Positions 1 through 3,000 of a stretch of 64,000 nucleotides of DNA are shown here, piece after piece. A program made the position numbers. Each line of letters starts with the position of its first letter. The stretch's first letter is position 1. Where the stretch lies: contig NW_018408864.1 in the NCBI RefSeq assembly GCF_002113885.1, positions 1,095,718-1,159,717 on the forward strand. Direction: 5' to 3'. This DNA comes from Mizuhopecten yessoensis (Eukaryota).

Positions 1-3000
1 CCGTATATCATATTCAAAGTTAAAGCTTGCTCCAATGTTCGTCTTGGTTTAAAGGAAGACGAATCTGTTGATGGCAAGTTGTGGGAGATAGCATTTGATG
101 TCGAACGAAATGACGAAAAGGAAATTCAGATTCGAAGGTTTATGGACGGAGTTCGAAAAGATAGCAAGATAATCACTGTACTTGACTGTAACAGTTTTCA
201 GAGGTTTTTGGTGAGCTGGCGGAACAACCATATACAAGTGTTCCACGAGAACTCGGGTGAATGGGTATCTATCATAGATTGGGTTGATGATAAAGGAGGA
301 AGGGATGTCGCCTATATCGGAGTGTATGGCGATGAAGCTGACTGGATTTTCTATGACGACTATGAAATAGGTAAGGTATCCAATGTTGATTATACTGAGT
401 CAAGAATACTTCGATTATTTTCTATTTATTCAGTTTTTGCTCATTTAAATTGTGTCGGCTTCTTTGCCATTTTCGTGTATTTTGTAGGAATAGACATACC
501 AGCTGGTGGCAGTACGTCTGAAACAATGGCGGGACTCAATGACTTGGAAGGGAACTTATCAGAATTAGAAATCGAGGAGAACAGGGCTAACATTGCCATT
601 TATGCTCTAAAATTCCTTTTGGACAAGTAAGCAATCATCCCATTTGATTATTACATAACAGAAGCGGCCTTGTCGTGTGTAATGAAATACTGACATAAAT
701 CATTAGATAATTATACGCTGTGATTTCATATAGCTACGCTATCAGTGCAATGTTTCAAAGAGTCTTTCAAAGAAAACTTAAGATTAAATTGTCTGTTTTT
801 CCTTTCTTAAGTTCCAACCTTGTAACCTGATAAATAAGTTTCATGGAATACATAATATCGAATATTAAATATTGTATTGTACTCATTTTCCACTGGCCTG
901 GTGTCACTTTCGGTGGTTTGGTGTCATTTCCGGTTATGTGGGAATTCACGCTGTCTCTTCTGTGTTGGCTTCTCAGTTTCATTTTTCTTTTCACCAAACT
1001 GTTTTCTAACAATGTTGACGTTGCATTTATTTAGCTATTAATTGTCATTACGATGATGTTACGCGTAAAGTAACAATATAATTCCCTGTTACTCAATATT
1101 TCTAAATGCTTTTTCAATCCGAAATACTGTTCTTTGCCAGGACTTAAATATTCGTGCTATTGTTGTACGGACTTTCAACATATCACCTGACCCAGGTCAC
1201 CGATTTATGATCATTGACTAGATTTTTTCAAACCCCTAAGCGGCGCGAAGCGCCTCTGGGTTTGATCTGTAAACACTTTCTCCACGTCCGGTGGTTCCCA
1301 ATGCGGAAAAGCCTTCTGGTAAATTGTGGCCGAAAATATATTAGTAAACCCCTAAAATATCTGTACTTATCATATTTTACCAGTGATATATCAGTCATTT
1401 TCCGTTTGATAAAATCTGTTATCTTCACTTCAGTCAAGATATACGAAATGTTATATCTTCACAGATAAAGATATCATTCACATTATTGTCCAATCAGAAA
1501 GGTAATTACTCTTCATTTGTAAAGATTTTTAGTTTCAAGTTCACATGAAGCGACGGCGAAATAAGTGGCTGTTTTGTTCTACTTTTGCTTACATAACTAC
1601 ATGATTGATATCAATTTTGTTTGAAAAATCTTACCAAATAATAGCAGCAACGGCAAACATTGCATTTAGAACCCCTTTTCAAATGGCGCTCTGCATTGTT
1701 GTCAAGCGTGACGTCATTAAAACCTGACGTCAAACATTACACTTCAAATTCCCGCACTTTTCTGATGTAGCAACATTTGCTTCGCGTTCCTCTAAAAATT
1801 GTATTAAAAAGAAAATTTAATGATTTTCCCGTTGAACACTAGATATGTATTTCACATGTTTAAAACAAATATGTAGTTACAATCGGAAAACTAGCGTTAT
1901 GGCGGAGTGTGTTTTCGTTGAAGACTAGAGAGGTAACAACTTCCTCGACAAGTATCCTCAACCAGATATTAACATTTTATGTAAAATCCAATTTAAAAGG
2001 GGCTATATTTAACACTTTGACCCAGAAGACAGTTGATAATTTATTTAAAAGTGTATTATCAAATAAAATCTTAGTGAAAAAAACGGCAAATATAAATGAT
2101 ATTTTTCGTACATCATCGTTCTGTATCTTCTCTCTGATGAGGTGACATTGTTACCAAAGTGTTGACATTTAAACATGCATTAAAACAAAGTTCCCGCCTT
2201 GGGAAAATGATTGAATGACAATGCAGCATGTGAGGATAATGAGAGTGAAAGGAATATTAGGTACGTTAAAAGTAATGCCATTAATGTTCGAATAATACAT
2301 TCAAGTGTGCAGGGTCTGTCCTTCGTAGTTTTTGGACTGTCCGTAAGTGATTTTTCGTCTAAATATCTGGTGTCCAGCAGCTTTGCTGCATTTTCTTGTT
2401 AATTTGTTTTTGGTTATTTATTTGACCATTCAATTTTAGTGATGAATTTTGGAATGGCACCGTACTTTCAATAAAAAGCTAATTTTCAATATTTCAGGGG
2501 ACCATTCCAATCTCTCGCAGAACTCAAGCAGATCCCAGGGTTTTCAGACGCTTTCAAAACAGGACAAACGAACCATGATTCAAAGGCTTGCAAGGAAGAA
2601 AATATAAAATGCACTAATACAATTAAGAAGTCGCAATTCAGGACCATAGACGGAACGTGTAACAACCTGAATAATCCAGGTTGGGGGTCCACTGGTAGTG
2701 CCCAACGCAGACTTATCGCAGCCGCTTACGAGGATGGTACGTACGAGCGCATACAAATACGGGCACATCTGAGATTATTTTGCTGTGTATTGATTCTATA
2801 ACGCTATATTACGTGTAGCCTCCTGTGAAATCTGAGATCCTACATTTGGAAACAATGATTATTTCAGTTGATCTGCTCCCAAAATTACAACACTTGCGGC
2901 CTCTTTTCTATTTTTTATCTCTTGCCTACTCTTTTATTTTCGATGGTATTACTGTAGGTGGATGTTCGGTTATTCCGACTGTTATGTTACAAAACATTAC

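What the first reader, a model, noticed from the sequence alone, without database searches (positions are those of the whole stretch)
1..2736. Methyltransf_FA-like domain apparently fused to a heme peroxidase
Seen: a FAMeT-like exon (1-370) and an acidic linker exon (488-626) splice in frame into the first peroxidase exon (2498). I found no separate signal-peptide or ATG exon between them. Established: classical animal peroxidase partners are a propeptide, LRR/Ig/VWC (peroxidasin), CCP/EGF/TM (TPO) or EF-hand/NOX (Duox), not this domain. Inference: a lineage-specific modular peroxidase, possibly for shell or byssus matrix cross-linking or immunity, with the FAMeT-like domain as a binding module.
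Basis: partly seen in the sequence, partly recalled or inferred. Interest (0 to 1): 0.72.

Follow-up and report, generated by a model that had tools for sequence, protein, structure and literature searches.

The report
Scallop heme peroxidase with FAMeT-like modules
The window holds most of a scallop-type gene for a secreted heme peroxidase with lectin-shaped "FAMeT-like" domains at its front, a domain combination present in automatic scallop annotations but apparently undescribed in papers.

Summary
Exons 1-370, 488-626 and 2498-2736 have canonical GT-AG borders. 626>2498 is the only frame-keeping GT-AG pair found there. A 14-exon model runs in frame from base 1 to TAG 35710-35712.

Six database proteins show the same collinear order: FAMeT-like domain(s), conserved acidic linker, An_peroxidase. 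Five are named, from four scallop genera, and they form two paralogous lineages. They align straight across the disputed junction.

Exon 1 gets no direct Pfam hit. It does match bona fide PF12248 domains by phmmer (9e-61 to 7e-17). Its model is a 9-strand beta-sandwich closest to galectin CRDs. That shape suits a binding module, not a methyltransferase.

The peroxidase exons keep the GQxxDHD and RxxE catalytic motifs.

I found no paper on this fusion. All support comes from gene models. No transcript was available, and the role in byssus, shell or immunity is untested.

Verdict: a real, lineage-restricted variant of a known enzyme family, of moderate interest.

The parts
1..370 (+). Exon 1 (5' end cut by the window edge). 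It encodes the second FAMeT-like (PF12248-related) beta-sandwich domain.
   Evidence: The frame is open from base 1. It is 63% identical to P0001 residues 298-418, at E 2.8e-60 / 9e-61. Pfam gives 0 hits directly. AF2 pLDDT is 84.6, all-beta, and the fold is galectin-like. Donor GTAAGG at 371.
371..487 (+). Intron 1: 117 nt, open in frame but absent from homologs.
488..626 (+). Exon 2: a conserved acidic linker (IDIPAGG...FLLDK).
   Evidence: It has 9 acidic and 3 basic residues in 46. It is 63% identical to P0001. Linker columns are invariant across both paralog lineages. Pfam gives 0 hits.
627..2497 (+). Intron 2 (1871 nt). Its donor GTAAGC overlaps the in-frame TAA 628-630. It holds two TGACGTCA palindromes, at 1709 and 1725.
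2498..2736 (+). Exon 3: a pre-domain segment plus the start of An_peroxidase (..FRTIDGTCNN..).
   Evidence: Pfam PF03098 at E 2.9e-9, 36.5 bits, profile positions 1-33. There is no Met in its open frame.
4116..4301 (+). Exon 4, carrying the distal motif FGQFIDHDI (Gln, ester Asp, catalytic His, Ca Asp).
   Evidence: Pfam 44.1 bits, profile 42-90. It aligns to the myeloperoxidase light-chain WGQLLDHDL. The motif definition is from PMC4420034.
12765..12825 (+). Exon 5 (..ITGCCAITDELIRNE..).
   Evidence: tblastn to P0001/P0002 and splice phases. At 19 aa it is too short for the Pfam tool.
13147..13259 (+). Exon 6
   Evidence: tblastn 68% to P0001 and phases. No Pfam hit alone.
13628..13729 (+). 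Exon 7 (..[15 protein letters not shown].., the calcium-site region).
   Evidence: Pfam 42.9 bits, profile 144-175.
14469..14564 (+). Exon 8 (..HCFLAG).
   Evidence: tblastn and phases. No Pfam hit alone.
24720..25020 (+). Exon 9. It starts with DVRVNEN (catalytic Arg and the second ester Glu).
   Evidence: Pfam 96.7 bits, profile 214-313. It aligns to lactoperoxidase DVRSNEQ. The motif is from PMC4420034.
28540..28707 (+). Exon 10. It starts with (R)YGHTLV, the proximal-His motif.
   Evidence: tblastn. RYGHTLV is invariant in 4 homologs. No Pfam or PDB hit alone.
29490..29702 (+). Exon 11
   Evidence: Pfam 71.2 bits, profile 374-443.
31599..31765 (+). Exon 12
   Evidence: Pfam 61.7 bits, profile 445-495.
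32118..32214 (+). Exon 13. Its last ~21 nt and its donor are the first unit of a 43-bp tandem array.
   Evidence: Pfam is weak at 11.9 bits, profile 502-530.
35646..35712 (+). Exon 14, the last coding exon (VEDLKRCDSYTDIDVSLFKDI, stop TAG 35710-35712).
   Evidence: tblastn to the P0001 C-terminus at E 0.004. The total of 2319 nt is in frame.

Best explanation
The window carries exons for residues from the second FAMeT-like domain to the stop codon of one gene: 14 exons, spanning 1-35712 on the + strand. The gene encodes a secreted, modular heme peroxidase of the peroxidase-cyclooxygenase superfamily.

By analogy with its full-length scallop homologs, the whole protein would be: signal peptide, acidic helical stretch, two tandem FAMeT-like (PF12248-type) beta-sandwich domains, a conserved acidic linker, then the An_peroxidase domain. 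The first three parts would lie upstream of the window.

Shown here: the in-frame splicing; the collinear homologs in two paralog lineages; intact catalytic motifs; and a galectin-like fold for the exon-1 domain.

Inferred: the enzyme is active and uses H2O2 to oxidise halides or phenolic side chains. The lectin-shaped modules do not methylate anything. Instead they hold the enzyme on an extracellular target, either glycan or matrix (byssus, periostracum or shell matrix) or microbial surfaces, so that oxidation or cross-linking is local. I put about 0.85 on the architecture and about 0.3 on this targeting role.
For: Splicing: canonical sites and a unique frame-keeping pair at 626>2498. The 14 exons sum to 2319 nt, ending exactly at a stop.

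Homologs: P0001 (Ylistrum 'peroxidasin-like', 1061 aa) has PF12248 in 2 stretches plus PF03098. P0002 is from Argopecten and P0003 is unnamed. P0004 (Ylistrum), P0052 (Mizuhopecten) and P0053 (Pecten) show the same order. All align without a break across the junction. The window's three exons are 64, 63 and 50% identical to P0001. Linker residues are invariant across lineages that are only 40% identical.

No second start: exon 3's frame has no Met, and the intron has no convincing ATG exon.

Exon-1 homology: phmmer found 50 hits. All 15 hits of 600 aa or more were Pfam-scanned; 13 carry PF12248 and 3 carry An_peroxidase. The match to P0004 (E 5.3e-20, residues 122-229) lies on its PF12248 stretch 120-238.

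Fold: pLDDT 84.6, 9 strands. The top PDB matches are galectin CRDs with TM 0.50-0.69.

Enzyme: 6 of 11 exons scanned pass the An_peroxidase cut-off alone, in collinear profile order. GQFIDHD and VRVNE fit the superfamily signatures.

[quoted passage not shown] Peroxidases are listed among scallop byssal proteins (PMC5700196 and PMC9168380, passages). A methyltransf_FA protein and peroxidases occur as separate proteins in abalone shell matrix (PMC6003135, passages).
Against: Every fused homolog is a computational gene model, and no transcript or peptide was available.

If the donor at 627 is not used, translation stops at once at TAA 628-630.

Exon 1 itself gets no Pfam hit at E<=1, and P0002's equivalent domain is below the cut-off at 18.6 against 24.2 bits.

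Two of three lineage-A models (P0002, P0003) lack the first domain and a signal peptide. P0053 is a chimera with a reverse-transcriptase domain.

Fold similarity to galectins is modest (Foldseek E about 1e-3, identity 15% or less), and sugar-binding residues were not examined.

Nothing links this particular gene to byssus, shell or immunity. The supplementary tables that list the byssal peroxidases were closed.

The full-length fold of P0001 failed (pLDDT 39.2), so the domain arrangement is unknown.
Confidence: 0.8

Rival explanations
1. There are two neighbouring genes. A small FAMeT-like protein ends at TAA 628-630, and a peroxidase gene has its own unseen first exon. On this view the fused database proteins are read-through artefacts of gene prediction.
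For: The in-frame TAA lies directly at the exon-2 end. All support is from predicted models. One database protein, P0021 (266 aa), holds only a signal peptide, an acidic region and the first FAMeT-like domain, so split models exist. A hydrophobic ATG frame sits at 936-1000.
Against: The same junction would have to be mis-predicted in six models from at least four genera and two paralog lineages, each aligning without a gap at the junction. Exon 3 has an acceptor in the matching phase and no Met. No candidate first exon has a consensus donor. In the full-length models the only signal peptide lies in front of the FAMeT-like domains (read by eye). P0021 ends after domain 1, not at the disputed junction.
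Confidence: 0.07
2. Both forms are made. Alongside the fused form, an alternative promoter or first exon inside intron 2 gives a peroxidase-only isoform. The module would then be optional.
For: P0002 is named 'isoform X1', which implies other isoforms. The 1.9-kb intron holds two TGACGTCA palindromes 16 bp apart, against 6 in the whole 64-kb window. In insects, FAMeT genes vary their PF12248 copy number by alternative splicing (PMC10015273, passages).
Against: No convincing ATG or signal-peptide exon was found. Nothing here shows promoter activity.
Confidence: 0.12
3. The locus is a decaying or silent paralog. The reading frame survives, but satellite-filled introns and an amplified splice donor prevent proper expression.
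For: Introns carry arrays of 6.8 kb, 9.3 kb and 2.3 kb. The exon-13 end plus its donor is repeated 49 times. No identical protein for this locus turned up in the protein searches.
Against: All 14 exons are open and in phase, with canonical sites. The catalytic motifs are intact. Identity to homologs is even along the gene at 47-78%. Large repeat-rich introns are common in bivalve genomes (my own knowledge).
Confidence: 0.06

Closest known systems
Predicted scallop proteins 'peroxidasin-like' and 'lactoperoxidase-like' (Ylistrum balloti), 'peroxidase-like isoform X1' (Argopecten irradians), 'myeloperoxidase-like' (Mizuhopecten yessoensis) and LOC117342104 (Pecten maximus)
   Same: The order of parts is the same: FAMeT-like domain(s), conserved acidic linker, An_peroxidase. 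The window is closest to the Ylistrum 'peroxidasin-like' protein, at 63-64% in exon 1.
   Different: These are automatic names taken from the peroxidase domain only, and none mentions the N-terminal module. The window's copy is a distinct sequence, with no near-identical protein found.
Peroxinectins and invertebrate peroxidases (family 3 of the peroxidase-cyclooxygenase superfamily)
   Same: They are secreted invertebrate PF03098 enzymes with the GQxxDHD and RxxE signatures. They combine a binding function with peroxidase activity (PMC4420034, passages).
   Different: Peroxinectin binds through a short integrin motif (KGD). Here the candidate binding part is a pair of about 120-residue beta-sandwich domains. 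I built no peroxidase tree, so family placement is untested.
Peroxidasin (family 2)
   Same: It is a multidomain secreted heme peroxidase with protein-interaction modules in front of the catalytic domain (PMC3533774, abstract start in the listing).
   Different: Pfam found no LRR, Ig or VWC domains in P0001 or P0004. The window's gene ends 21 residues after exon 13, with no room for a VWC domain.
Arthropod FAMeT (2x PF12248, or PF12248-DUF3421)
   Same: It has tandem PF12248 domains separated by a linker (PMC10015273, passages).
   Different: It has no peroxidase. Its function is unclear, and methyltransferase activity has never been reliably shown.
Extracellular mosaic proteins with Methyltransf_FA domains (CPAMD8-type, and the lectin/MAM/fibrinogen mosaics found here)
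   Same: The same domain is used as a mobile module beside recognition domains (PMC9363628, passage).
   Different: The partner domains differ. Of the 15 hits of 600 aa or more, all of which were scanned, only the 3 scallop-type ones carry a peroxidase.
Galectin carbohydrate-recognition domain
   Same: The predicted fold is similar: TM 0.50-0.69 and Foldseek E from 9e-4.
   Different: Identity is 15% or less, there was no sequence-level PDB match, and the galectin sugar-binding residues were not checked. This is a resemblance in shape only.

Membership tests
An_peroxidase (PF03098; peroxidase-cyclooxygenase superfamily) | Match to the Pfam profile above the gathering score | tested here: met
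   Tested exon by exon. Exons E3, E4, E7, E9, E11 and E12 each pass 25 bits (36.5, 44.1, 42.9, 96.7, 71.2 and 61.7), in collinear profile order 1-33 to 445-495. E13 is weak. E6, E8, E10 and E14 give no hit alone. That is 6 of 11 exons scanned.
An_peroxidase (PF03098; peroxidase-cyclooxygenase superfamily) | Distal signature -X-G-Q-X-X-D-H-D-X- (PMC4420034) | tested here: met
   FGQFIDHDI in exon 4 aligns to WGQLLDHDL of myeloperoxidase.
An_peroxidase (PF03098; peroxidase-cyclooxygenase superfamily) | Catalytic Arg and ester-forming Glu, -X-R-X-X-E-X- | tested here: met
   DVRVNEN at the start of exon 9 aligns to lactoperoxidase DVRSNEQ.
An_peroxidase (PF03098; peroxidase-cyclooxygenase superfamily) | Proximal histidine ligand | tested here: inconclusive
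   RYGHTLV is present at the exon 9/10 border and invariant in 4 homologs. That this His is the ligand rests on recall. Exon 10 alone gave no PDB or Pfam alignment.
An_peroxidase (PF03098; peroxidase-cyclooxygenase superfamily) | Heme binding and peroxidase activity | not testable with these tools
   This needs protein expression and an assay.
Methyltransf_FA (PF12248) | Match to the Pfam profile above the gathering score (24.2 bits) | tested here: not met
   Window exon 1 gives 0 families at E<=1. The orthologous domain of P0002 scores 18.6 bits. I therefore call it FAMeT-like, or PF12248-related, rather than a Pfam member in its own right. The window also cuts off the first profile positions.
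Methyltransf_FA (PF12248) | Significant sequence homology to domains that do pass the profile | tested here: met
   phmmer gave P0004 at 5.3e-20 on its PF12248 stretch, P0005 at 7e-17, and 50 hits in all. 13 of the 15 hits of 600 aa or more carry PF12248. A local profile built from alignment A3, which includes exon 1, scores exon 1 at 137.8 bits. The tree places it with the domain 2 of lineage-A peroxidases (SH-aLRT 100) on a long stem of 1.01.
Peroxidasin | LRR and Ig domains before the peroxidase domain, and VWC after it | tested here: not met
   Pfam found none in P0001 or P0004. The window's gene stops 21 residues after exon 13. The part upstream of the window was not seen.
Galectin | Galectin-type beta-sandwich fold | tested here: inconclusive
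   The top Foldseek hits are galectin CRDs with TM 0.50-0.69, but E is only about 1e-3 and a GH16 glucanase also appears at rank 16.
Galectin | Conserved beta-galactoside-binding residues | not tested
   No residue-level comparison was made.

The most novel reading that the evidence does not exclude
Scallops (Pectinidae) evolved their own subfamily of heme peroxidases. An ancestral peroxidase captured a pair of lectin-fold FAMeT-like modules once, and the gene then duplicated into two lineages. The modules act as glycan or matrix anchors that confine oxidative cross-linking or halogenation to a specific extracellular structure (byssus or periostracum) or to microbes. This would be a functional analogue of peroxinectin or peroxidasin built from a different module. 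It would also be the first clue to what the enigmatic FAMeT domain does.
Probability: 0.3. Interest if true: 0.55.

Novelty: new variant of a known kind. Interest (0 to 1): 0.4.

Why it matters
Animal heme peroxidases are usually described with a short list of partner modules. This adds a lectin-shaped one, restricted to scallops as far as these limited searches could see.

It matters in two modest ways. First, it gives a concrete, testable hypothesis for how an oxidative cross-linking enzyme is targeted in bivalve extracellular materials. Second, it gives the poorly understood FAMeT/PF12248 domain a context that argues for binding, not methyl transfer. A review states that its methyltransferase activity was never reliably shown.

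It does not change the general picture of peroxidases, and the proteins are already in public databases under uninformative automatic names.

Tried and rejected
Searches were done exon by exon, and public full-length homologs served as stand-ins.

Direct Pfam scans of exon 1, exon 2 and the unspliced 1-627 gave 0 families.

A word-index search with P0001 residues 130-470 returned only P0001 itself (1 of 4114 candidates). The profile search failed to return P0001-P0003 although they were in the query. This tool's recall is poor, so the absence of non-scallop fused forms is weak evidence.

The Atlas search with P0004 gave only peroxidase-only arthropod clusters at score 0.78, below the level of a lead.

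A PDB sequence search with the FAMeT-like profile gave 0 matches at E<=1. Exon 10 against PDB gave 0 at E<=0.01.

The full-length AF2 model of P0001 from a 6-row alignment had pLDDT 39.2 and is unusable. No statement on domain packing or linker structure is drawn from it.

The isoform lists therefore stayed unseen.

The scan for an internal first exon gave no convincing candidate.

Pfam on six longer ORFs downstream of the gene (43-63 kb) gave 0 families.

A domain tree (quick method, SH-aLRT only) could not resolve how domains 1 and 2 of the two lineages relate. The node joining all 12 peroxidase-linked domains (plus one other) has support 88. A single origin is therefore compatible with the data but not shown.

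Not available: eukaryotic genome or read collections; the metagenome and viral collections (closed, and of no use here); and the supplementary tables of the byssus papers, which may say whether the byssal peroxidases carry this module.

The contig is mollusc-like, not human.
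Full report
**Observation**

The window is AT-rich eukaryotic DNA with no N.

- Frame 1 is open from base 1, so the window begins inside an exon.
- Exon 1 ends at 370 (TAG|GTAAGG).
- Exon 2 is 488-626 (TTTTGTAG| ... CAA|GTAAGC).
- Exon 3 is 2498-2736 (ATTTCAG| ... G|GTACGT).
- The phases fit: 370 nt leaves one base, 139 more leaves two, and base 2498 completes an AAG codon.
- In the ranges scanned, 626>2498 was the only GT-AG pair that keeps the frame open.
- Intron 1 (117 nt) is open in frame, but all homologs lack it.
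- The linker exon has 9 acidic and 3 basic residues in 46.

**The whole gene**

Mapping two homologs with tblastn and refining the splice sites gives 14 exons from base 1 to a TAG at 35710-35712. All have GT donors and AG acceptors. Their lengths sum to 2319 nt, a multiple of three.

Every search was made exon by exon, and public full-length homologs served as stand-ins.

- Exon 3 alone passes the An_peroxidase cut-off, at 36.5 bits against 25.
- So do exons 4, 7, 9, 11 and 12, in collinear profile order. Exon 13 is weak. Exons 6, 8, 10 and 14 give nothing alone. That is 6 of 11 scanned; exon 5 is too short for the tool.
- Exon 4 carries FGQFIDHDI, aligned to WGQLLDHDL of myeloperoxidase.
- Exon 9 starts with DVRVNEN, aligned to DVRSNEQ of lactoperoxidase.
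- These fit the superfamily signatures -X-G-Q-X-X-D-H-D-X- and -X-R-X-X-E-X- given in PMC4420034 (passages).
- RYGHTLV sits at the exon 9/10 border and is invariant in four homologs. That its His is the proximal ligand is from recall.

**Is exon 1 FAMeT-like?**

Directly, Pfam says no: 0 families at E<=1 for exon 1, exon 2 and the unspliced 1-627. Homology is nevertheless clear.

- phmmer against 1.84 billion representatives gave 50 hits at E<=0.001 (11 at 1e-10 or better), led by P0001 at 9e-61.
- All 15 hits of 600 aa or more were Pfam-scanned. 13 carry PF12248, often many copies; the exceptions are P0003 and the NHL protein P0036. 3 carry An_peroxidase. The 35 shorter hits were not scanned.
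- The match to P0004 (5.3e-20, residues 122-229) falls on its PF12248 stretch 120-238.
- In a quick tree of 39 domain segments, exon 1 sits with the second domains of P0001, P0002 and P0003 (SH-aLRT 100). That clade has a long stem of 1.01 changes per column, which explains the failed Pfam match.
- The window edge also removes the first profile positions.

**Is the fusion real?**

Six database proteins have the same order of parts.

| Protein | Source and automatic name | Length | Notes |
|---|---|---|---|
| P0001 | Ylistrum balloti, 'peroxidasin-like' | 1061 aa | PF12248 in 2 stretches, An_peroxidase at 512-1038 |
| P0002 | Argopecten irradians, 'peroxidase-like isoform X1' | 808 aa | |
| P0003 | unnamed | 771 aa | |
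| P0004 | Y. balloti, 'lactoperoxidase-like' | 1031 aa | |
| P0052 | Mizuhopecten yessoensis, 'myeloperoxidase-like' | 1046 aa | |
| P0053 | Pecten maximus, LOC117342104 | 1229 aa | also has a reverse-transcriptase domain; truncated at the C-terminus |

- They form two lineages that are about 40% identical. The window belongs with P0001.
- All align without a break across the disputed junction. The window's three exons are 64, 63 and 50% identical to P0001.
- Linker residues are invariant across both lineages.
- Exon 3's frame has no Met.
- Of 37 phase-compatible ATG...GT candidates in the intron, 18 have at least 12 aa and none has a consensus donor.
- In the full-length models the only signal-peptide-like N-terminus precedes the FAMeT-like domains (judged by eye).

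Against this, all six are gene predictions. Two lack the first domain. One 266-aa model (P0021) holds only the N-terminal part. I had no transcripts.

**What the module looks like**

AlphaFold2 on exon 1 with a 22-row alignment gave pLDDT 84.6 and pTM 0.78, with nine strands and no helix. Foldseek against the PDB returned galectin carbohydrate-recognition domains as best matches (E from 9.3e-4, TM 0.50-0.69), with a GH16 glucanase at rank 16. No PDB sequence relative exists.

Two cysteines and two tryptophans are invariant or nearly so in the family alignment.

In other proteins the domain sits beside C-type lectin, fibrinogen, F5/8-C, SUEL lectin, MAM, FN3, trypsin and TSP1 domains.

Together this favours a binding module. 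The ligand is unknown, and galectin sugar-binding residues were not checked.

**Function**

This part is inference. The protein is probably a secreted, active heme peroxidase held on a target by its lectin-shaped modules.

- Peroxidases are listed among scallop byssal proteins (PMC5700196 and PMC9168380, passages).
- A methyltransf_FA protein and peroxidases occur as separate proteins in abalone shell matrix (PMC6003135, passages).
- None of this is tied to this gene, and the supplementary tables that might tie it were closed.

**Novelty**

Searches for 'Methyltransf_FA' with 'peroxidase' gave 1 paper, with the two as separate proteins. 'Farnesoic acid O-methyltransferase' with 'peroxidase' and 'shell matrix' gave 0. 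'FAMeT' with 'peroxidase' and 'mollusc' gave 3, and by title and abstract start in the listing none concerns a peroxidase fusion; they were not opened. 'Methyltransf_FA' alone gave 5. None describes the fusion.

The architecture is, however, already in public automatic annotations. All five named fused proteins are from Pectinidae. My protein searches have poor recall, so restriction to scallops is provisional.

I rate it a new variant of a known kind, of moderate interest.

**What failed**

- The full-length fold of P0001 was unusable (pLDDT 39.2).

The contig is mollusc-like, not human.

Noticed in passing
window 32193-34299: A 43-bp tandem array has 49 copies at 99% matches. Its unit is the last ~21 nt of coding exon 13 plus the GTAAGT donor and ~16 nt of intron. 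The exon end and its 5' splice site are therefore repeated 49 times. Only the first donor (32214|GT) joins in frame to the last exon at 35646, and each copy has an in-frame TAA right after AAG.
   Followed up: partly
window 4367-11215, 14897-24217, 25430-27736: Three introns of the peroxidase gene are filled by large minisatellites: a 21-bp unit x 328 copies (strong C over G bias, GC skew about -0.4), a 22-bp unit x 423, and a 45-bp unit x 51 at 95% matches. They create long spurious ORFs on both strands.
   Followed up: partly
window 1709-1732: Two TGACGTCA palindromes lie 16 bp apart inside intron 2, against only 6 in the whole window. This could be a CRE-like element of an internal promoter, or chance.
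   Followed up: no
window 36000-64000: No recognisable gene lies downstream of the peroxidase. There are further tandem arrays at 41446-42289 (73 bp), 47870-49983 and 50355-51548 (31 bp), 51848-52361, 53094-53363, 58175-58953 and 60140-60923. Six of the longer ORFs gave no Pfam hit.
   Followed up: partly
protein P0021 (library hit, no locus): A 266-aa database protein consists only of a signal peptide, an acidic region and the first FAMeT-like domain. It clusters with domain 1 of P0001. It is probably a truncated model of an ortholog of this gene in some genome.
   Followed up: partly
protein P0053 (Pecten maximus LOC117342104): This fused model also carries a reverse-transcriptase domain (PF00078) at its N-terminus and breaks off inside the peroxidase domain. 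It looks like a chimeric gene prediction with a retroelement.
   Followed up: no
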